64,000 nucleotides of DNA from UHGV virus genome UHGV-0141727; one strand, written 5' to 3'. Made by a program: the position numbers and the translations under genes. Source of the stretch: a virus. Positions 4,109 through 15,303 of this stretch are shown one piece after another. The notes beneath the pieces are model-generated. The model was not told the DNA's origin and ran no database searches. It saw only the letters and a program-made list of their open reading frames with translations. The number at the start of each line of letters is the position of its first letter. Position 1 is the first letter of the stretch.

Positions 4109-4488
4109 TGAGGCATATATCACCGGAAGAACTTATTGCGCTTCATGATGCGAATATAAGCCGCTACGGCGGCCTGCCGGGAATGTCAGATCCGGGTAGG
4201 GCAGAGGCCATTATCGGGAGAGTTCAGGCCAGAGTTGCCTACGAAGAGATCACCGACCTTTTCGAAGTCTCCGCAACCTACCTGGTGGCTACTGCGAGAG
4301 GGCATATATTCAATGATGCCAATAAGCGTACCGCGCTAAACAGTGCGCTGCTATTTCTACGCCGTAACGGCATACAGGTATATGATTCTCCCGTGCTGGT
4401 GGAACTTGCGGTGGGGGCTGCAACTGGTGAAATCCCCGTATCTTCAGTAGCGGAAAAACTACGTGAACTATATGGTTCCAATATTTGA
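4108..4488 (+). CDS. doc: Doc toxin (Fic-fold kinase)
   Basis: 126 aa, [25 protein letters not shown]...; translationally coupled to phd. Confidence 0.95.
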
Positions 4489-4491
4489 AAA

Positions 4492-4517
4492 GAAGCCCGC
4501 TCAACCAGGCGGGCTTC
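4492..4517. terminator. hairpin between convergent doc (+) and the 4524 gene (-)
   Basis: GAAGCCCGC-tcaaccag-GCGGGCTTC; T-rich flank on the minus strand. Confidence 0.55.
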
Positions 4518-4523
4518 CTACTA

Positions 4524-5630
4524 TCACTCAATGATTTTTTCTGCTGTCAGCCAGCTAATTTCTTGCCTGTCTTTCGGCGGTTTTAGCATGTGGGCGTATT
4601 CAGCAACATTCTCCCACGGAATTGTTTTTGCCCACTCAACGATAGCATTGTGATCTGCAGTGAAGAGTGGAATGGTGTGCGATTTCAACCACTCCAATGT
4701 TGTAACGCCATGTTTTTTGGCGTGGTGCTGTGCATGATGCCGGGCTATCACTCGTAATGGCATTATCCATTCACTACCATCAGGCATCGAAAAGCGCATT
4801 GTCTTCGGCATATCTGATTCAAGAACAGCCTCCCTAATACCAGGAAACTCACCAAGAACCATACGACGGTAGTAATCGCTGTTTTTACCACCATATATTT
4901 CTGCAATGTTATCAAGATAACCTTGAGAAATAATGGGGGTATCTTCGGCGTTCAGCTTGATGGCTGTATAAATACCACATGGATTTTCTTCTGATTTAGC
5001 ACGACCATGATGGGAATCGTAAAAGTGTCCATGCTCCTCCTCTGAAGGAGCGGACATTAAAAGTATACGTGAATCGTCACTTACTAACGATGCTCTTAAC
5101 ATGCTGAATAGCCGATCGCCAGCAAGAGCCGCCTCCGTAACAATGATTAAAAGATGTTCAGCATAATATCCACCGAAACCTTCCTCATAATTTCGGTGAT
5201 ATGGCTTAATTTCGCAGCCCCAATATTCCCGGTAACGATGATTGATGCCGTTTCCATCGACTTTAAAATATTCTCTCAGCAATGGGATTCTGTTACTGAC
5301 TCTATCCCAATACGTACTTATGTATTGGATAACTTGCCTGCGACAATTATAGAACTTTGGGGAAACAATAACCGTTTTAGACTCAGGCATCAGGATTGTA
5401 TAAAGAATACTAATTATAGCGATAACCGTCTTTTGGCCTATCCCTTCAGGAGTGGTGACGCTGACTGCTGAACCTTTTTGTTGAATCGCCTCAACAATTA
5501 GCTTTTGCTGGTGGGTTAACTTAACACCCATCAACTCTTCTGCTGCTAATGCCCAGTCATGGCTATATTTGCTTACCAGCTCTCTCCACTCTGGTAATTC
5601 GGTGATGTTTTTAGGCGTCAGCATCAGCAT
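4524..5630 (-). CDS. terminase large-subunit (PacB-like) N-terminal ATPase-domain paralog, Walker motifs degenerate, no nuclease domain
   Basis: Aligns by eye to the N-terminal half of the 10979-12487 product (HQQKLIVEAIQQKG.. vs HQQQQIIQSVQETG..; AEHLLIIVTEAA vs AEHLLLILDEAS; YDSHHGRAKSEENP vs YESHHSRAKAEGNP); Walker A is PEGIGQKT in place of GHGTGKS. Confidence 0.6.
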   Translation of the reverse strand: MLMLTPKNITELPEWRELVSKYSHDWALAAEELMGVKLTHQQKLIVEAIQQKGSAVSVTTPEGIGQKTVIAIISILYTILMPESKTVIVSPKFYNCRRQVIQYISTYWDRVSNRIPLLREYFKVDGNGINHRYREYWGCEIKPYHRNYEEGFGGYYAEHLLIIVTEAALAGDRLFSMLRASLVSDDSRILLMSAPSEEEHGHFYDSHHGRAKSEENPCGIYTAIKLNAEDTPIISQGYLDNIAEIYGGKNSDYYRRMVLGEFPGIREAVLESDMPKTMRFSMPDGSEWIMPLRVIARHHAQHHAKKHGVTTLEWLKSHTIPLFTADHNAIVEWAKTIPWENVAEYAHMLKPPKDRQEISWLTAEKIIE

Positions 5631-6417
5631 CCTCCGCTACCTCTGCCTCCACATCTGCCGCGACTTCATCGGACTGTTCTTCTTTGGCCTGTTCTGCAAT
5701 CGCCGCACGGCATTTCGCCCTGGCTGTAGCGATGGCCTCAACTTTCACGTCATTAGGAATACTTGAGGTGACATACATATCCAGTTCTTCAGCACGGAAT
5801 ACTGTTTTGTCCAGGAATTCATCAAGCATCCAGGTTAAGGAAAAGTCGCAGGAAATCAGCTCTACTTCGCCTTCCGCGCCGTTTGGGAAATGGATAAACA
5901 TCTGCTTGCCCAGGCCAAGCACGCGACAAGCTGCCATCATTACTGCAAGTTCCAGGTCTTTGTTTTCACCTGCTACTGGTTGATCCACACCAGTAATAGT
6001 GCCGTTCAAATGGATATTATATGGCTGATATTTAGAGATGCGTTCTACACGCCATGTGCCGGTTAAGGTTCCCTGGCGGAAGATTATTGGCGTGACCGAA
6101 AGCGACAGCTCTCGAATGAGTTGTTGTGCTATGGCTGGGTCATACAGGGGATCTAACGCGATGCATCCATAAGACTGCGCCAGTTCAAACAATTCTTCCT
6201 GTGTGCACTGAATGCCTCTTGCCGTAATAAAACGTCTGACTCCCGTTTTTCCGTCACGCCAGATAGCAATGCCATTCTCACTATCTAACTCTTCGTCTAA
6301 GCCCAGGTATGTAAGGATGGTTCGCTCAATGGTGGCAAAGGGCAGGGACATATCATCGTTTACATCCACCAGCAGGCCGTTACGCAGGCGATATTGAATG
6401 TTTTTGGTATTTTCCAC
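5611..6417 (-). CDS. hypothetical protein with strongly acidic C-terminal tail
   Basis: 268 aa ending ...EEQSDEVAADVEAEVAEDADADA; co-directional and overlapping with flanking genes. Confidence 0.5.
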   Translation of the reverse strand: MENTKNIQYRLRNGLLVDVNDDMSLPFATIERTILTYLGLDEELDSENGIAIWRDGKTGVRRFITARGIQCTQEELFELAQSYGCIALDPLYDPAIAQQLIRELSLSVTPIIFRQGTLTGTWRVERISKYQPYNIHLNGTITGVDQPVAGENKDLELAVMMAACRVLGLGKQMFIHFPNGAEGEVELISCDFSLTWMLDEFLDKTVFRAEELDMYVTSSIPNDVKVEAIATARAKCRAAIAEQAKEEQSDEVAADVEAEVAEDADADA

Positions 6418-6423
6418 GTTAAA

Positions 6424-7086
6424 TCACTCCACAACAAACCAGTCACAGGCCAGCAGGTCGCCAACTGAAGGCACCCACGGAACAACTACACCTTGTGCAT
6501 TTTTTAAGGCGAAATAAGCACCATACGGAACGAAGTCGCCGGGGAAATATCCCTTAATGGCTTCCATTCGTGCCGGGTACTGTCCTTCAGGAACCAGCCA
6601 GCAGAATTGGTTTTCGCCGTTCCACCCGCGTCGAGCAACTTTCTTGCCATCCTTCAGCCACATCAGCGCGTCAGAAAAGTCGGCTGCTTCAAGGTCGATT
6701 TCTTCTTGTAGAGTAGCGATACCGCCAGCAGAAATAGTTACGTCCCTGGCTGTAATGAATGTCACCCCATTGTGACCTTCAATGCTGAGCAATGTCCCAT
6801 TTTCGAAGGCGTCGTTAACCCGGCTATAGCATTTTTCAAATGCTTTCTCTGGCACATAGACCAGATAGCCATTTTCAGCAGTGACGAGATATCCTCCTAT
6901 TTGCGGGCGGAATTTTTCCAAGAACACACCATCAACACGAAGCGTCATTCCTTTTGGCTCAACGACTTCGATACTGCCAAAAATGGGCGCATAATCTTCG
7001 CCGACAATAACAATATCTTTGATTTTCGATGCCCGAATGATGCTGTGGCATTTGTATTTGGGGAACACCTGAAAAGTGCTGACCAT
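6424..7086 (-). CDS. protein with C-terminal DUF2829-like domain (Tad2-like candidate)
   Basis: C-terminus ALMWLKDGKKVARRGWNG...DLLACDWFVVE resembles the DUF2829 hallmark as I recall it; about 130-aa N-terminal extension. Confidence 0.45.
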   Translation of the reverse strand: MVSTFQVFPKYKCHSIIRASKIKDIVIVGEDYAPIFGSIEVVEPKGMTLRVDGVFLEKFRPQIGGYLVTAENGYLVYVPEKAFEKCYSRVNDAFENGTLLSIEGHNGVTFITARDVTISAGGIATLQEEIDLEAADFSDALMWLKDGKKVARRGWNGENQFCWLVPEGQYPARMEAIKGYFPGDFVPYGAYFALKNAQGVVVPWVPSVGDLLACDWFVVE

Positions 7087-7100
7087 AATCCTTCCTCTAC

Positions 7101-7595
7101 TTAAAACTTTTCGTACTGAAGCGGTGTACGCTTGATTTCAACGCGGCCTTCCGATGTGCTACCAAAGCCACCAGCACCTCGCTCTGTTTCATCGAGTTCA
7201 TCAACTTCTACCAGCGATACCGGTTCAACACGCTCAAAAATGCCTTGCATGACCGCCATTCCAGGCTTGAGGCAAACACCTTCACCACCGGGATCTGTAA
7301 TCAGTTTTGCCATGATTTCACCGCGATAATCGGCGTCGATAATTCCTACGCAGTTAGCCAGGCGCGTATGCTTTTTGCAGCCCAATCCGGAACGAGGATA
7401 AAGTTTCAGACACCAGCCAGGAGGGATCGCCATAGCGAGGCCGGTATGCACCCACCAGCTTGAGGAAATAGCGCCGTTGCTATCGATACCAGGCGTTATT
7501 TCAACAGCAACAAAATCCATCGCCGCCGATCCGGCGGTGGCGTAAACGGGGAGTTTTGCCGCCGGATGAAGGCGTTTCACTTTCACGTTAATCAT
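7101..7595 (-). CDS. dut: dUTP diphosphatase (trimeric dUTPase)
   Basis: Motifs GIIDADYRGEI and RGAGGFGSTS. Confidence 0.9.
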   Translation of the reverse strand: MINVKVKRLHPAAKLPVYATAGSAAMDFVAVEITPGIDSNGAISSSWWVHTGLAMAIPPGWCLKLYPRSGLGCKKHTRLANCVGIIDADYRGEIMAKLITDPGGEGVCLKPGMAVMQGIFERVEPVSLVEVDELDETERGAGGFGSTSEGRVEIKRTPLQYEKF

Positions 7596-8080
7596 TGCTT
7601 TTTAGCTCTCCGGGTAAATGTATAAATCCGGCGTTTGATATGCGGAGCGGTCGGAACGGAGACGCAGGTATTCTCGATAACACCTTGTTCCTCCAGCGAT
7701 CGCACAGCACGCAAGAACTGTGATGCATCGCCACCGCCAGACAGCCAGAATTTGCGGGCATAGACGCTGCCATTACGGATAATTTCTGCGATCACCCGCG
7801 CTTGCGTCTGGCTTTCTCGATAGCCAAAGAGTTCTCTTGCCTCTCCTTGTGGGATAGCCAACTGGTAGCCTTTCCCGCTACGGTGACGGACAAAACCGTG
7901 AGCAATGAGGTTCTTCAGCTCATTTCGGGTGCGGATACACCCGTACTCAGGGAACTGTGTGTTGATATCACCAGGCTTATGCCATTCATCAGGACTATCA
8001 GCCAGGAGGGACAGAAGTTTCCCTGACAGCTCAGGATTAGTGGTTGGATAGCAGTTCAGGGATGGGTAGTAAGTTTTCAT
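7592..8080 (-). CDS. hypothetical protein (162 aa)
   Basis: ORF overlapping dut start and upstream gene stop by 4 nt. Confidence 0.45.
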   Translation of the reverse strand: MKTYYPSLNCYPTTNPELSGKLLSLLADSPDEWHKPGDINTQFPEYGCIRTRNELKNLIAHGFVRHRSGKGYQLAIPQGEARELFGYRESQTQARVIAEIIRNGSVYARKFWLSGGGDASQFLRAVRSLEEQGVIENTCVSVPTAPHIKRRIYTFTRRAKKQ

Positions 8081-8421
8081 TTGCGCCCCCTTGCCGGATA
8101 GCGCCCGGCATTTGCATCAGGGGCAATGAAGCCGCTGGTGGGGCGAGTGAAAACATGGTTAATTTTCTCGGTCATAGCGCGATAATTTTCCTGATAGTGG
8201 GCCAGGAGTTTTTCAGCAGCAATGACGGTTACTTTCCGGACGTAGCGTTCAGCTTCCTCCAGATTTCGCCAGTTTTTTTCGAGGGTAAACACGGGAACGG
8301 CATCAAGTCCGGTCATAACACCGAACACCACGACCGCCTGGTCGCGCTTAACGCCCGCAGTGAAGGTTATGGTGTAACCGTCAACAGTGAAGCGTTTTGA
8401 TTCCGTAATACGATTGTGCAA
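8077..8421 (-). CDS. hypothetical protein (first gene of the cre-downstream operon, TTG start as called)
   Basis: 4-nt overlap with the next gene; preceded by a 10-bp inverted repeat at 8421-8450. Confidence 0.4.
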   Translation of the reverse strand: MHNRITESKRFTVDGYTITFTAGVKRDQAVVVFGVMTGLDAVPVFTLEKNWRNLEEAERYVRKVTVIAAEKLLAHYQENYRAMTEKINHVFTRPTSGFIAPDANAGRYPARGRK

Positions 8422-8450
8422 AGTACCCTCCGCAATAGGCGAGGGTACTT
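8421..8450. promoter_or_regulatory. perfect 10-bp inverted repeat (AAGTACCCTC / GAGGGTACTT) between cre and the downstream operon
   Basis: Stem-loop directly 5' of the 8421 start; no U-tract. Confidence 0.4.
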
Positions 8451-8476
8451 TACATTAAAATGCACTGTCTAAAAAG

Positions 8477-8494
8477 ATTGTTAGAAAATTAATT
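8477..8494. promoter_or_regulatory. operator-like motif attgTTAGAAAATTAAtt
   Basis: One of at least 10 dispersed copies of the TTAGAAAAtTAA family. Confidence 0.45.
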
Positions 8495-9522
8495 CAGGAA
8501 TCCATCAGGCGACTATTTGCACCAACGGATGCCCCGCTACGGCGCAAATATCGCATAAGTGTTTCGGGCTTTTTCCATGTGCCTTCCTGCATGATCTCGA
8601 CCATTGACACCTGTTTCTCAGCCATATCAATTGCCGCACCAACACGCGCACTATGACCTGTCCACGTCCGGTATCTTCCTTTGTTCGGCGTGGCATCTCG
8701 CTTATTCAGCAATCCCCAGGCATCGCTGAATATTTTCTCCATCGCAGGAGCAGTAAGAGGCGTTGTCGTGATTCTGGCTTTATTACTGCGGTGTATTGGC
8801 GGGAATAGCACCGCGTCCGGATGTTCACGAAGTCCGGACACCTCCAGCCAGTCGTTTAGCACGGCGGTAGTGCAACGAGAAAGCACCTTATCAAGTCCGG
8901 CGGCGGTCGTGATGGTCTTCGTGTGTGAAATATGCAGCGTTACAGTGTCACCTGTTTGGTCCAGATCTCCGACACGGATGCGCGAGATTTCTGACATACG
9001 CATCAGGGTATTGTATGCCACGAAGAGAAACGCCCGATTGCGCAGGTCCACCAGCCGCTCGGAACGGGACAGCAATACGTCGAGCAATTTCAGATCATCC
9101 CACCGCAACGGTATAGCCTGGCCTGTACGCTCGCCTTTTTCCGTTGCCGCTTCGCGCCGGATGCGCCGCATGGCCAGAGATACACTTTTATCGTCTGACA
9201 GCGGCGGTAGGCCGCATTGCGAAAGCAGCATGTTAAGCATGGCATAGTGCTTATCAATGGTGGTCGAAGCCAGATCGGCTTCATGCAACTGGAGAAGATA
9301 CTCGCGGGCCATTTCCGGCGTAATCGGGAACCAGGGGCGCTGGCGCGAATTACACCACCGCGCCCAGGAATGAAAGACCAGACGGAGATCACGAAGTGTA
9401 TTTGGGGCATAAGCTCCCTGGTCGTTCATGAACTGCATAAAGTTTTTTGCAGCTTCCTGGTATTCGGTGCCAATATCGCGCAGAAAACCGCCAGAACCGC
9501 CGGAGATAACTAGTTCACCCAT
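8494..9522 (-). CDS. cre: Cre-family tyrosine recombinase
   Basis: Collinear similarity to P1 Cre as recalled (SWARWCNSRQRPWFP, VSLAMRRIRRE, GHSARVGAA). Confidence 0.9.
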   Translation of the reverse strand: MGELVISGGSGGFLRDIGTEYQEAAKNFMQFMNDQGAYAPNTLRDLRLVFHSWARWCNSRQRPWFPITPEMAREYLLQLHEADLASTTIDKHYAMLNMLLSQCGLPPLSDDKSVSLAMRRIRREAATEKGERTGQAIPLRWDDLKLLDVLLSRSERLVDLRNRAFLFVAYNTLMRMSEISRIRVGDLDQTGDTVTLHISHTKTITTAAGLDKVLSRCTTAVLNDWLEVSGLREHPDAVLFPPIHRSNKARITTTPLTAPAMEKIFSDAWGLLNKRDATPNKGRYRTWTGHSARVGAAIDMAEKQVSMVEIMQEGTWKKPETLMRYLRRSGASVGANSRLMDS

Positions 9523-9673
9523 GAAACTATTAAACCTCTATATACAGATGACGCTACGTGAAAAATAGAAAACTGACAGGGTAGTTATAAGTTAATTTTC
9601 AAAATTCAAGCCTTTGATTCGAGGCATGATTTTTCATCCTTGTCAATACTACCTGTTTACTGGAGATTATAGC

Positions 9674-9707
9674 CTAACTTTAAATAATGCCAATTATTTA
9701 AAGTTAG
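9674..9707. other. lox-like recombination site, 13-bp inverted arms around an 8-bp spacer
   Basis: CTAACTTTAAATA-ATGCCAAT-TATTTAAAGTTAG; arms share TAACTT..ATA with loxP; about 150 bp upstream of cre. Confidence 0.55.
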
Positions 9708-9874
9708 AAATCGGGACTTTTTTCCCAAAAAAACACCGACAAGATCACTTCGCAAATCTGTCAGCCATGCGGTAGCCGTTTCCTGGTTACATTTTCTAAT
9801 AGGAACAATCAAAAAAAAGCGGTTTTATCCTTTACTCACCTTGTTATTCAGCATAAATTTGTCACAGGACTTTT

Positions 9875-9890
9875 ATGTTAGAAAACTAAA
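9875..9890. promoter_or_regulatory. operator-like motif ATGTTAGAAAActaaa just upstream of the 9904 gene
   Basis: Same family as the other dispersed sites. Confidence 0.4.
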
Positions 9891-14347: not shown

Positions 14348-14731
14348 CTACCAGCGGGATAAACGAACAACATGCTTAACTTTTGCCTCCCACTTCCCTT
14401 TATGTTTGTTGATCACCGCCTGCGCCATCTTCAGACTGGCTTCAAAATCGGCTTTTCGACCACTATTGCCCACCAGCAACGCTCCGTCTATTTCGGGTAA
14501 GCATAAGTAATCCTGCTCGACGGTAAGCGGCATTGATGATGTAACCTGGCAGGCTTTCCATCTGAAGCGTATGCGCACACTCCTGACTGACATCACGACA
14601 TAACCTGATATTGTGCTCTTGTGTCCGGCGTCTGTGCGTGTAGCCTTGCATGATGTTATCTTGCAGGTGATGATGTCCCAACCAATGTGCATTGCATCCT
14701 CAATGCGTAATTTAGTAGCCTCGTACATCAA
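14348..14731 (-). CDS. hypothetical protein (127 aa)
   Basis: 4-nt overlap with the upstream gene. Confidence 0.35.
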   Translation of the reverse strand: MMYEATKLRIEDAMHIGWDIITCKITSCKATRTDAGHKSTISGYVVMSVRSVRIRFRWKACQVTSSMPLTVEQDYLCLPEIDGALLVGNSGRKADFEASLKMAQAVINKHKGKWEAKVKHVVRLSRW

Positions 14732-15303
14732 AAAACCTCCCAGTCAGTAGCGATAATATCGACACCAGTTGCAAACCAGTCTGTCTGCGCCTGTAAATCC
14801 CCATTCATCATTACCAGGCGAGGCATAACCATCACATCACAACCTTCAACAATATCGAATGCCTCTTCCGGCAGGAATTCGACGAGCTTTTCTTTGCTGC
14901 CAACACTGCCACGGAGCATCGATATATAGCTCCCTTTAGGCCATGATGTTCGCCGGGCATCAAGCCCCTTCATCATCCAGTAAAAGGCCGATGAGAACGG
15001 GATGTTCTTTTTGGCGATGAGCACGTTATTCGCTTCTGTGTACTTCAGGAACTTAACTAACCTTACCATCGACTCGGATAACGCAATGTACGGCTCATGA
15101 TTGATTGCTGACACGCTTACGCCGTGCAGTCCAACACTTACCACTGTCATATCACCGTTCTGTGCGGTTTCGATGTTGACGCCTTTACGAACTAACGCTG
15201 CATAAAGCTCCTCGCGCTTTTGCGTCCAGCATTCTCGTCGCCCTATAAAGTCACTCAAAACGAGATCATCTTCTGAATACGCGTTATCGTTCGCCGTTAA
15301 CAT
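14728..15303 (-). CDS. protein with C-terminal DUF2829-like domain (paralog of the 6424-7086 C-terminus)
   Basis: AFYWMMKGLDARRTSWPKG...DIIATDWEVF parallels ALMWLKDGKKVARRGWNG...DLLACDWFVVE. Confidence 0.4.
   Translation of the reverse strand: MLTANDNAYSEDDLVLSDFIGRRECWTQKREELYAALVRKGVNIETAQNGDMTVVSVGLHGVSVSAINHEPYIALSESMVRLVKFLKYTEANNVLIAKKNIPFSSAFYWMMKGLDARRTSWPKGSYISMLRGSVGSKEKLVEFLPEEAFDIVEGCDVMVMPRLVMMNGDLQAQTDWFATGVDIIATDWEVF

What the first reader, a model, noticed from the sequence alone, without database searches (positions are those of the whole stretch)
4524..8460. Six-gene accessory operon downstream of cre with counter-defence flavour
Between cre and the convergent phd-doc module, six co-directional, translationally coupled genes sit where P1 carries cra/ref/mat. 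They are two unknowns, dUTPase, a protein with a DUF2829-like C-terminus, a protein with a poly-acidic tail, and a terminase-ATPase paralog. The operon is preceded by a 10-bp perfect hairpin and an operator-like site. Taken together this looks like a regulated anti-defence or superinfection-interference cargo island rather than core phage machinery.
Basis: partly seen in the sequence, partly recalled or inferred. Interest (0 to 1): 0.7.

Follow-up and report, generated by a model that had tools for sequence, protein, structure and literature searches.

The report
Early accessory operon with Tad2 sponge
This is a real six-gene operon of a D6-like (P1-related) phage-plasmid in which one gene is a clear relative of proven phage "sponge" proteins that soak up bacterial immune signals and one is a dUTPase, while the other four, including a catalytically dead copy of the DNA-packaging ATPase, have no known function.

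Summary
Six co-directional, tightly coupled minus-strand genes (8421-4524) lie between the Cre homologue Dre and convergent phd-doc, behind a conserved hairpin and an operator-like site. The window is a D6-like P1-family phage-plasmid.

The block is syntenic in dozens of such plasmids, but modular. D6 lacks gene 6, pK91 lacks genes 4 and 6, and P1-like elements carry genes 4-5-6 or subsets between ssb and hxr.

- **Gene 3:** a trimeric-type dUTPase.
- **Gene 4:** a Tad2-family domain, about 48% identical to MoTad2 (a His-ADPR and cUMP/cCMP sponge), fused to a widespread Dec-like N-terminal domain that has no Pfam family.
- **Gene 5:** the P1 IsaA homologue, fold uninformative.
- **Gene 6:** a PacB paralogue that has lost Walker A Lys, Walker B Asp-Glu and the nuclease domain.
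- **Genes 1 and 2:** lineage-restricted unknowns.

The operator-like site belongs to a 12-copy intergenic family, three copies at positions matching P1 C1 operators.

The counter-defence reading is supported for one gene only, and a 2025 survey already reported Tad2 in 93% of D6-like elements. The "variable cargo island" reading is only partly right. Verdict: a new member of a known kind, of moderate interest. The IsaA/dead-terminase pair is the open question.

The parts
8477..8493 (+). Operator-like 17-mer ATTGTTAGAAAATTAAT (core TGTTAGAAAATTAA, perfect copy), between the dre stop codon and g1
   Evidence: There are 12 copies at up to 2 mismatches in the window against 0.72 expected, and all are intergenic. 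Copies also lie upstream of the C1 homologue (9876-9889) and of lpa (14318/14334). These positions match P1 Oc1 and Olpa, and this copy matches P1 Oref/Omat. The P1 operator consensus itself gives 0 hits. The site is invariant across D6-like relatives.
8417..8454 (-). Conserved stem-loop (14-nt arms, 10-nt loop). Its 3' arm contains the GGAGGG Shine-Dalgarno sequence and the UUG start codon of g1.
   Evidence: RNA fold dG -23.8 kcal/mol, z -5.0, 0 of 200 shuffles as stable. Inverted repeat confirmed. 98.8% of cells are paired across 6 distinct relatives, with one compensatory U-A to C-G change and two G.U changes, but the sample is small (79/500 shuffles match). No Rfam match.
8077..8421 (-). 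g1, 114 aa, unknown function (D6 orf117/orf2)
   Evidence: phrog_1968 at E 4e-44, unknown function. No Pfam, NCBIfam, PADLOC or PDB match. Found only in D6 among phage records. 76-82% identical among D6-like relatives.
7592..8080 (-). g2, 162 aa, unknown function; possibly a winged-helix protein (weak hint only)
   Evidence: phrog_6669 at E 2e-86. Only 12 clusters in 5.8 billion proteins, all Enterobacteriaceae. Single-member sub-threshold Pfam hints to PadR, RQC and Trans_reg_C, E 0.1-0.2. Overlaps g1 and g3 by ATGA.
7101..7595 (-). g3, trimeric-type dUTPase (Dut), 164 aa
   Evidence: Pfam PF00692 at 48.9 bits (cut-off 22). NCBIfam NF001862 at 116.6 bits (cut-off 103). Aligns end to end with solved dUTPases at E 1.9e-23, with motifs I, II, III and V intact. 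In motif IV the Arg is replaced by Ala (GMAVMQ), and this is conserved in the lineage.
6811..7065 (-). g4 N-terminal domain (aa 8-92): widespread uncharacterised ~85-aa phage domain, Dec-like
   Evidence: 967 representative clusters at E<=1e-3, mostly 85-200 aa stand-alone proteins, motif CHK..A.KI...GGY.V.YEDGY.SYSP..AFE.GY. No Pfam family; phrog_11049. The profile hits the phage L Dec OB-fold domain 6e3c_C at E 2.5e-4. 9 of the top 149 representatives also carry a C-terminal Tad2 domain.
6427..6690 (-). g4 C-terminal Tad2-like domain (aa 133-220)
   Evidence: PF11195 at E 1.7e-22. PDB matches: MoTad2 9eib/8v3e at E 5e-20, HgmTad2/AcrIIA7, SPO1 Gp34.65 and SptTad2. W155-N156-G157, W204, S207 and D210 align with the HgmTad2 gcADPR-pocket residues W21/N22/G23, W87, S90 and D93; the T92 equivalent is Gly. 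It has the long MoTad2-type insertion; a short-insertion allele exists in relatives.
5611..6417 (-). g5, IsaA homologue, 268 aa, with an acidic C-terminal tail (aa ~243-268)
4524..5630 (-). g6, ATPase-dead PacB (large terminase) paralogue, 368 aa: pseudo-ATPase domain (aa ~1-265) plus a conserved ~100-aa C-terminal domain (nt 4527-4835) in place of the nuclease domain
   Evidence: 34% identical to PacB, E 3e-52. Walker A is GKS in PacB but GQK, GHK, GRP or GET in the paralogues. Walker B is DE in PacB but TE, MD, DS or NS. The C-terminal domain is 93-100% conserved among D6-likes, while aa 75-135 are 26-50% identical. 49% identical paralogues follow isaA in P1-like genomes. The C-terminal domain stands alone in Cronobacter phage JK004 and is fused to a DUF1351-like protein in Xanthomonas phage SAC.
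4495..4510 (-). Terminator-like hairpin plus T-rich tail, 14 nt after the g6 stop, facing the doc stop
   Evidence: Consensus scan. The overall count of such sites in the region is not above chance (7 against 6.0), so this is a weak annotation.

Best explanation
The block is a composite, non-essential early operon of D6-like P1-family phage-plasmids. It joins a lineage-specific set (g1, g2, dut) to a P1-family-wide 'isaA module' (Tad2 fusion, IsaA, dead PacB paralogue).

Shown by homology:
- g3 is a trimeric-type dUTPase. It would keep dUTP low during phage DNA synthesis.
- g4 carries a Tad2-family domain of the MoTad2 clade with the ADPR-type pocket residues retained. It most likely acts as a sponge that sequesters TIR- or cyclase-made immune nucleotides (His-ADPR or gcADPR, possibly cUMP/cCMP), so that Thoeris- or Pycsar-type effectors are not triggered.
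- g6 is a PacB paralogue that cannot hydrolyse ATP or cut DNA.

Inferred:
- The operon is repressed by the D6-type C1 repressor through the operator-like site at 8477-8493 and is switched on early after infection or induction. This parallels the C1-controlled ref, mat and ssb-isaA operons of P1.
- The conserved hairpin limits g1 translation by burying its Shine-Dalgarno sequence and UUG start.
- IsaA and g6 are always adjacent and overlapping, so they probably work as a complex that acts by binding rather than catalysis.

The roles of g1, g2, g5 and g6 remain unknown.
For: - **Operon anatomy and coupling:**
- **Lineage and synteny:**
- **Modularity:** D6 lacks g6. pK91 has dre-g1-g2-dut-isaA only. 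E. albertii pEA32_2 has ssb-Tad2 fusion-isaA-PacB paralogue-hxr. SJ46 has the Tad2 fusion plus isaA. MH422554 has isaA plus the paralogue.
- **Dut:**
- **Tad2:**. Experimental function of the closest relatives: 10.1101/2024.01.03.573942 and 10.1101/2025.08.24.671296.
- **Dead ATPase:**
- **Operator family and positional homology with P1 operators:**
- **Hairpin:**
- **Non-essentiality and variability of the isaA region in P1:**
- **Faster divergence of g2, g4, g5 and g6 (53-82% identity) than of dre and dut (88-94%):**
Against: - No promoter meeting the sigma-70 scan criteria lies between dre and g1. The operon may instead be read through from the strong promoter-like site upstream of dre (9693-9666).
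- The operator motif is my inference. No repressor binding has been shown, and the P1 consensus is absent.
- The Tad2 domain is fused to a 130-aa N-terminal region, unlike every characterised Tad2. The AF2 model of g4 failed (pLDDT 46), so tetramer and pocket geometry are untested.
- The residue equivalent to HgmTad2 T92 is Gly.
- Dut motif IV lacks the usual Arg.
- Four of six products have no functional evidence at all.
Confidence: 0.55

Rival explanations
1. The whole six-gene operon is a dedicated counter-defence island. Each product would neutralise a different host immune system: the Tad2 fusion against signalling systems, Dut against uracil- or dNTP-based defences, the acidic-tailed IsaA as a DNA or protein mimic, and the dead PacB paralogue as a decoy for terminase-sensing receptors.
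For: - The Tad2 homology is strong.
- g4 and g6 show allelic, mosaic diversification of the kind seen in arms-race genes.
- g2, g5 and g6 diverge faster than dre and dut.
- Terminase ATPase domains are sensed by Avs2, Avs3 and Upx (PMC13601566).
- A second Tad2-domain protein lies elsewhere in the window.
Against: - Only g4 has any defence-related match. PADLOC, Pfam, NCBIfam and PDB are silent for g1, g2, g5 and g6.
- Avs2 and Avs3 recognition uses the terminase-bound ATP and active-site residues, which g6 lacks. A simple decoy is therefore not expected to bind them.
- The short acidic tail is variable in length and nearly absent in P1-type IsaA.
- The block is largely fixed in the lineage rather than shuffled.
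Confidence: 0.2
2. The block is mainly an early DNA-metabolism accessory operon, with the Tad2 fusion as a passenger. Dut sanitises the nucleotide pool. IsaA plus the PacB-like protein would bind DNA or replication/recombination proteins during early replication.
For: - In P1-like genomes the isaA module directly follows ssb in the C1-controlled Pssb operon.
- The conserved C-terminal domain of g6 occurs alone near a DnaB-like helicase in Cronobacter phage JK004. In Xanthomonas phage SAC it sits at the end of a DUF1351-like protein next to recombinase, exonuclease and SSB genes.
- dut is the best conserved gene of the six.
Against: - isaA is dispensable for P1 lytic growth.
- The gene-neighbourhood evidence rests on two distant phages.
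- The hypervariable pseudo-ATPase core is unusual for a housekeeping DNA-metabolism factor.
Confidence: 0.2
3. IsaA and the dead PacB paralogue interfere with DNA packaging. They would either temper the phage's own PacA/PacB pacase or poison the pacase of co-infecting P1-family rivals, by forming non-productive complexes.
For: - g6 keeps the PacB ATPase-domain scaffold at 34% identity while losing catalysis. That is the classic design of a dominant-negative subunit.
- Its core is hypervariable between otherwise near-identical elements, as expected if it tracks rival terminases.
Against: - There is no experimental or comparative evidence of interaction with PacA, PacB or portal.
- IsaA shows no similarity to PacA.
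- If the operon is C1-repressed, it would be off in lysogens, where exclusion would matter most.
Confidence: 0.08
4. g6 is a decaying relic of a duplicated pacB with no function of its own.
For: The catalytic motifs and nuclease domain are lost. GC content is lower than in its neighbours (43% against 48-52%). It is absent from D6 and many relatives.
Against: - Intact full-length ORFs persist in lineages only 35-50% identical to each other.
- The C-terminal domain is 93-100% conserved among D6-likes.
- The overlap with the isaA stop codon is conserved.
Confidence: 0.04

Closest known systems
Tad2 (Thoeris anti-defence 2; Pfam PF11195, formerly DUF2829), especially MoTad2/ModTad2 from a Myroides odoratus prophage (PDB 9EIB, 8V3E)
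   Same: The g4 C-terminal 88 residues align end to end with MoTad2 at E 5e-20, about 48% identity. They include the long insertion after beta2 and the W-N-G and W..S..D pocket motifs. MoTad2 sequesters His-ADPR (type II Thoeris) and cUMP/cCMP (Pycsar).
   Different: g4 is a 220-aa fusion with an N-terminal Dec-like domain and a linker, whereas characterised Tad2 proteins are small stand-alone tetramers. The T92-equivalent pocket residue is Gly and varies (G/D/A/C) among P1/D6 alleles. Ligand and oligomeric state are untested. This sequence is not among the 18 Tad2 homologues tested in 10.1101/2025.08.24.671296.
Phage D6 orf117-orf113 block downstream of dre (MF356679/NC_050154, AY753669) and P1 ssb-isaA-IS1-isaB region
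   Same: D6 has the same gene order dre-g1-g2-dut-DUF2829-isaA at about 80% nucleotide identity. P1 IsaA is 46-47% identical to g5 and lies in a C1-controlled operon.
   Different: D6 has a truncated 146-aa g4 and no g6, with a pdcA-like gene in that place. P1 has neither g4 nor g6 and carries IS1 plus the unrelated isaB after isaA.
PacB / large terminase subunit (TerL), and stand-alone TerL-ATPase paralogues such as T4 vs.8
   Same: The homology to the PacB ATPase domain is clear. It is a stand-alone ATPase-domain paralogue, like T4 vs.8 (PMC13601566).
   Different: Walker A Lys and Walker B Asp-Glu are lost in every g6 homologue examined. The nuclease domain is replaced by an unrelated, conserved 100-aa domain. 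T4 vs.8 keeps its Walker motifs.
Trimeric dUTPases (E. coli Dut and phage Duts)
   Same: Full-length alignment with motifs I, II, III and V intact, above the curated cut-offs.
   Different: The motif IV Arg is replaced by Ala (GMAVMQ). There is a 16-residue C-terminal extension after motif V. Activity was not tested.
P1 C1 repressor/operator regulon (Oref/Omat, Ossb, Olpa, Oc1)
   Same: The motif is an asymmetric, AT-rich 17-mer, repeated in intergenic regions. Copies lie at positions homologous to P1 operators: downstream of cre/dre, upstream of c1, and upstream of lpa.
   Different: The sequence differs from the P1 consensus ATTGCTCTAATAAATTT (10 of 17 for this copy; 0 hits at up to 3 mismatches). 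The C1 homologue is 345 aa. Binding has not been demonstrated.

Membership tests
Tad2 (Thoeris anti-defence 2) sponge family | PF11195 Tad2-like domain above the Pfam gathering score | tested here: met
   80.2 bits against a cut-off of 25, E 1.7e-22, residues 136-219.
Tad2 (Thoeris anti-defence 2) sponge family | Sequence homology to structurally and functionally characterised Tad2 proteins | tested here: met
   MoTad2 at E 5e-20, HgmTad2/AcrIIA7 at 3.6e-10, SPO1 Gp34.65 at 4e-9 and SptTad2 at 4e-8.
Tad2 (Thoeris anti-defence 2) sponge family | Conservation of ADPR-type ligand pocket residues (HgmTad2 W21/N22/G23, W87, S90, T92, D93) | tested here: inconclusive
   W155, N156, G157, W204, S207 and D210 are conserved; the T92 equivalent is G209 (alignment, residue list). 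The residue-level MoTad2 pocket list was not available in text.
Tad2 (Thoeris anti-defence 2) sponge family | Small stand-alone protein forming a homotetramer | tested here: not met
   g4 is a 220-aa fusion protein. The oligomeric state could not be assessed because the AF2 model failed at pLDDT 46.
Tad2 (Thoeris anti-defence 2) sponge family | Binds and sequesters an immune nucleotide and relieves Thoeris, Pycsar or CBASS defence | not testable with these tools
   Needs binding assays and phage plating.
Trimeric dUTPase | Family models above curated cut-offs | tested here: met
   PF00692 at 48.9 bits (cut-off 22), NF001862 at 116.6 (cut-off 103), TIGR00576 at 116 (cut-off 102.55).
Trimeric dUTPase | Five conserved motifs | tested here: inconclusive
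   Motifs I, II, III and V align with solved enzymes. Motif IV reads GMAVMQ, with Ala where solved enzymes have Arg.
Large terminase subunit (PacB/TerL) | Homologous N-terminal ATPase domain | tested here: met
   34% identity over 258 aa, E 3e-52, to the window's PacB.
Large terminase subunit (PacB/TerL) | Intact Walker A (GKS/T) and Walker B (hhhhDE) | tested here: not met
   Walker A reads GIGQKT, GIGHKS, GIGRPQ or GIGETS. Walker B reads VTEA, VMDA, IVDS or VINS. This holds in all seven paralogues aligned.
Large terminase subunit (PacB/TerL) | C-terminal RNase H-like nuclease domain | tested here: not met
   The PacB region after residue ~265 has no counterpart. g6 instead has an unrelated ~100-aa domain.
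P1 IsaA family | Full-length homology to P1 IsaA | tested here: met
   46.6% identity over 84% of g5, E 5e-65; alignment.
C1-controlled early operon (P1 type) | C1 operator overlapping a promoter upstream of the operon | tested here: inconclusive
   A member of a 12-copy intergenic motif family is present. The P1 consensus is absent, and no promoter passes the scan between dre and g1.
Known anti-phage defence systems (PADLOC) | Any PADLOC model hit | tested here: not met
   0 families for all six proteins at E<=0.1.
Phage L Dec-like OB-fold domain | Similarity of the g4 N-terminal domain to the Dec OB-fold | tested here: inconclusive
   The family profile matches 6e3c_C at E 2.5e-4 over 70 residues, and the single sequence at E 0.0015. 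No usable structure model.

The most novel reading that the evidence does not exclude
The translationally coupled IsaA + ATPase-dead PacB paralogue pair is a previously unrecognised P1-family system that acts on terminase-directed processes. It would either blunt host receptors that sense the terminase ATPase domain (Avs1-3, Upx) or poison the packaging motors of competing P1-family phages. The hypervariable pseudo-ATPase core would be the specificity surface, and the conserved C-terminal domain the anchor to IsaA or DNA.
Probability: 0.12. Interest if true: 0.8.

Novelty: new member of a known kind. Interest (0 to 1): 0.4.

Why it matters
P1 and D6-like phage-plasmids are common in clinical E. 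coli, Shigella and Salmonella, and they move resistance genes. Knowing which of their accessory genes disarm host immunity helps explain their host range and persistence.

- **g4:** it is an untested Enterobacterial member of the MoTad2 clade with a new fusion architecture and two natural pocket alleles. That makes it a ready-made system for asking how sponge specificity changes.
- **g6 with IsaA:** the dead terminase paralogue is the only part with real discovery potential, because terminase ATPase domains are now known to be major targets of bacterial pattern-recognition receptors.
- **Operator motif:** if confirmed, it defines the D6-type C1 regulon.

Tried and rejected
- **P1 C1 operator consensus:** searched in the window at up to 3 mismatches, 0 hits.
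- **P1 gene homology:** g1 against P1 C8 and g2 against P1 Ref show no similarity, so the block is not a diverged c8-ref-mat.
- **P1 IsaB as a remnant of the PacB paralogue:** rejected, no similarity.
- **IsaA as a PacA paralogue:** rejected by BLASTP.
- **PADLOC:** nothing for any of the six proteins.
- **PDB sequence searches for g1, g2, g5 and g6:** only chance-level hits.
- **AF2 model of full-length g4:** failed at pLDDT 46, so no fold search was run on it.
- **Rfam:** no match on 4400-9800.
- **Word-indexed homologue search of the g4 N-terminal domain:** only close relatives found. The exhaustive HMMER scan was needed to reveal the wider family.
- **Literature:** the Sauer & McDermott 2004 paper on the D6 immC region is not held.
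- **Plasmids carrying only dre:** these turned out to be IS26-deleted resistance-plasmid derivatives, not natural variants.

Full report
**What the window is.** The region 4400-8600 matches phage D6 at about 80% nucleotide identity. It matches many non-mobilizable ~90-kb Escherichia and Salmonella plasmids of replicon cluster 1704 at 81-99.6%. The neighbours are PacA/PacB, a 345-aa C1 homologue 80% identical to D6 C1, the Cre homologue Dre, and phd-doc. The element is therefore a D6-like member of the P1 family of phage-plasmids.

**Checking the observation.** Six minus-strand ORFs run from 8421 to 4524, with junctions of -4, -4, +14, +6 and -20 nt and Shine-Dalgarno sequences ahead of g4, g5 and g6. 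RefSeq annotators call the same six genes in relatives.
- The hairpin exists and is stronger than described. It has 14-nt arms, dG -23.8 kcal/mol, and z = -5.0. Its 3' arm contains the GGAGGG Shine-Dalgarno sequence and the UUG start of g1.
- The dre-g1 spacer is about 90% identical across relatives whose coding DNA is roughly 80% identical. In the most diverged copy (pK91) the stem is kept through one compensatory U-A to C-G change and G.U changes. Six distinct sequences are too few for statistics.
- One correction: P1 carries c8, ref and mat downstream of cre, while cra is upstream. g1 and g2 are unrelated to C8 and Ref.

**The operator-like site.** The P1 C1 operator consensus is absent from the window. 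The 17-mer at 8477-8493 does belong to a family with core TGTTAGAAAATTAA.
- There are 12 copies at up to 2 mismatches against 0.72 expected, and all are intergenic.
- Copies lie just upstream of the C1 homologue (9876-9889) and as a pair about 80 nt upstream of lpa (14318/14334). P1 has Oc1 and Olpa at these places.
- The copy between dre and g1 corresponds in position to P1 Oref/Omat. In P1 the isaA gene is likewise in a C1-controlled operon, Pssb/Ossb.
- I infer that this is the D6-type C1 operator and that the operon is an early, repressor-controlled unit. This is inference only. No promoter passing the sigma-70 scan lies between dre and g1, whereas a strong promoter-like site (11 of 12) precedes dre.

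**Gene by gene.**
- **g1 (114 aa) and g2 (162 aa).** These are lineage-restricted proteins with PHROG families of unknown function and nothing else. g2 gives only isolated sub-threshold winged-helix hints.
- **g3, the dUTPase.** It scores above curated cut-offs and aligns along its full length with solved enzymes. The only oddity is Ala in place of the motif IV Arg, conserved through the lineage.
- **g4, the Tad2 fusion.** Residues 133-220 are a Tad2-family domain (PF11195, E 1.7e-22). The closest solved relative is MoTad2 at E 5e-20, about 48% identity, followed by HgmTad2/AcrIIA7, SPO1 Tad2 and SptTad2.
  - MoTad2 sequesters His-ADPR of type II Thoeris and cUMP/cCMP of Pycsar in separate pockets.
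  - Mapping the HgmTad2 pocket residues onto the alignment shows W-N-G and W..S..D retained, with Gly at the T92 position.
  - Among P1/D6 relatives the domain comes in two alleles, with or without a 9-residue stretch in the insertion after beta2. That is the region that forms the second pocket in long Tad2s. The T92-equivalent residue also varies.
  - Residues 8-92 belong to a large uncharacterised family: 967 representative clusters, mostly 85-200-aa stand-alone phage proteins, no Pfam model, phrog_11049. Its profile weakly matches the OB-fold of the phage L decoration protein Dec at E 2.5e-4.
  - Nine of the 149 best representatives of this family also end in a Tad2 domain, so the fusion recurs.
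  - The AF2 model of g4 was unusable.
- **g6, the dead PacB paralogue.** It is 34% identical to PacB over the ATPase domain. In all seven homologues aligned, the Walker A Lys and the Walker B Asp-Glu are replaced, and by different residues in different lineages. The nuclease domain is replaced by a ~100-aa domain.
  - That C-terminal domain is 93-100% conserved among D6-likes, while the pseudo-ATPase core (aa 75-135) drops to 26-50% even between otherwise near-identical elements. This is a mosaic pattern.
  - The C-terminal domain occurs alone in Cronobacter phage JK004 near a DnaB-like helicase. In Xanthomonas phage SAC it sits at the end of a DUF1351-like protein beside recombinase, exonuclease and SSB genes.

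**Comparative picture.** The order dre-g1-g2-dut-g4-g5-g6 is shared by 44 plasmids covering at least 80% of 4524-9522. A comparable number carry g1-g5 without g6, as D6 itself does.
- pK91 has dre-g1-g2-dut-isaA only.
- Plasmids with dre alone are IS26-deleted resistance derivatives.
- In P1-like genomes the isaA module lies between ssb and hxr in several versions: Tad2 fusion + isaA + PacB paralogue (E. albertii pEA32_2), Tad2 fusion + isaA (SJ46), isaA + paralogue (MH422554, 813R1), or isaA + IS1 + the unrelated isaB (P1).
- isaA is therefore the constant, and the slots on either side of it are variable. Wherever the paralogue is present it overlaps the isaA stop codon.
- Protein identities to relatives are 88-94% for Dre, 89-92% for Dut, 76-82% for g1, 72-74% for g2, 65-75% for g5, 65-82% for g6 and 53-96% for g4.

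**Interpretation.** The best-supported account is a composite early accessory operon. Two functions rest on solid homology: dUTP hydrolysis and immune-nucleotide sequestration by a Tad2-family domain. The dead PacB paralogue must act by binding rather than catalysis, probably together with IsaA.

Whether that pair serves counter-defence, DNA metabolism or packaging interference cannot be decided here. The first idea gains some plausibility from recent evidence that Avs2, Avs3 and Upx sense the terminase ATPase domain, and that T4 has a stand-alone ATPase paralogue, vs.8 (PMC13601566). Avs2 and Avs3 read the bound ATP and active-site residues, though, and g6 lacks these. The DNA-metabolism idea rests on gene neighbourhoods.

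**Novelty.** The genes are already annotated as hypothetical, DUF2829 or dut in D6 and in many plasmids. A 2025 survey already reports Tad2/AcrIIA7 in 93% of D6-like and 56% of P1-like phage-plasmids (10.1101/2025.09.12.675607).

Five things appear not to be described in the literature I could search:
- the Dec-like/Tad2 fusion architecture and its alleles;
- the consistent loss of catalytic motifs in the PacB paralogue and its coupling to IsaA;
- the D6-type operator motif;
- the hairpin that buries the Shine-Dalgarno sequence;
- a second Tad2-domain protein at 14728-15303.

I rate the finding a new member of a known kind, with moderate interest.

Noticed in passing
window 14728-15303 (-): This is a second Tad2-domain protein: 191 aa, PF11195 at 40.4 bits against a cut-off of 25, residues 103-190. 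Its N-terminal ~100 aa differ from g4. It lies upstream of a 127-aa ORF, the operator pair and lpa, and is only 28% identical to g4 over the domain. The element therefore carries two putative sponge fusions.
   Followed up: partly
window 8479, 9876, 14318, 14334, 18019, 18153, 18169, 19414, 20469, 31022, 32224, 62306: Twelve intergenic copies of TGTTAGAAAATTAA are likely the D6-type C1 operator set. Two sites form close inverted pairs (14318/14334 and 18153/18169), like the bivalent P1 operators.
   Followed up: partly
window 9666-9693 (-): A near-consensus sigma-70 promoter-like site (TTGGCA-16-TATAAT, 11 of 12) lies upstream of dre. It could also drive read-through into the six-gene block.
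   Followed up: no
P0033-P0061 (relatives of g4), alignment A6: The Tad2 domain comes in two alleles among P1/D6 fusion proteins. One has the segment PEGQYPARMEAIKGYFPGD and the other has LAGSVNLH---GI. The pocket residue after PSV also varies (G/D/A/C).
   Followed up: partly
P0066-P0214 (representatives of the g4 N-terminal domain): This is a large family of ~85-aa phage proteins with the motif CHK..A.KI...GGY.V.YEDGY.SYSP..AFE.GY and no Pfam model. It is usually N-terminal to variable extensions, including Tad2, and a PHROG profile annotated as MazG-like pyrophosphatase (phrog_37613) also matches the domain. It is weakly similar to the phage L Dec OB-fold.
   Followed up: partly
L020 4001-4297 (Cronobacter phage JK004); L019 2382-3794 (Xanthomonas phage SAC): The conserved C-terminal domain of g6 occurs as a 98-aa stand-alone protein two genes after a DnaB-like helicase. 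It also occurs at the C-terminus of a 470-aa DUF1351-like protein next to recombinase, exonuclease and SSB genes.
   Followed up: partly
L011 (NZ_CP010154.1), L012 (NZ_CP058720.1): These are IncY-typed resistance plasmids that keep dre, and in L011 also c1 and part of pacB. IS26 has removed the whole six-gene block, and resistance or other cargo (mph(A), pga, sil) sits next to dre.
   Followed up: no
window 7101-7595 (g3), residues ~110-116: dUTPase motif IV reads GMAVMQ, with Ala where solved dUTPases have Arg. This is conserved in all D6-like relatives examined.
   Followed up: partly
window 4524-5630 vs rest of block: g6 has a lower GC content (43.2%, GC3 40%) than g1-g5 (48-52%) and the window mean (48.2%). 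This fits a separate origin for this gene.
   Followed up: no
L010 (NZ_CP149812.1) and others: The phd-doc module next to the block is itself variable. It is absent in pEHP91H1-2, where humD directly abuts g6.
   Followed up: no
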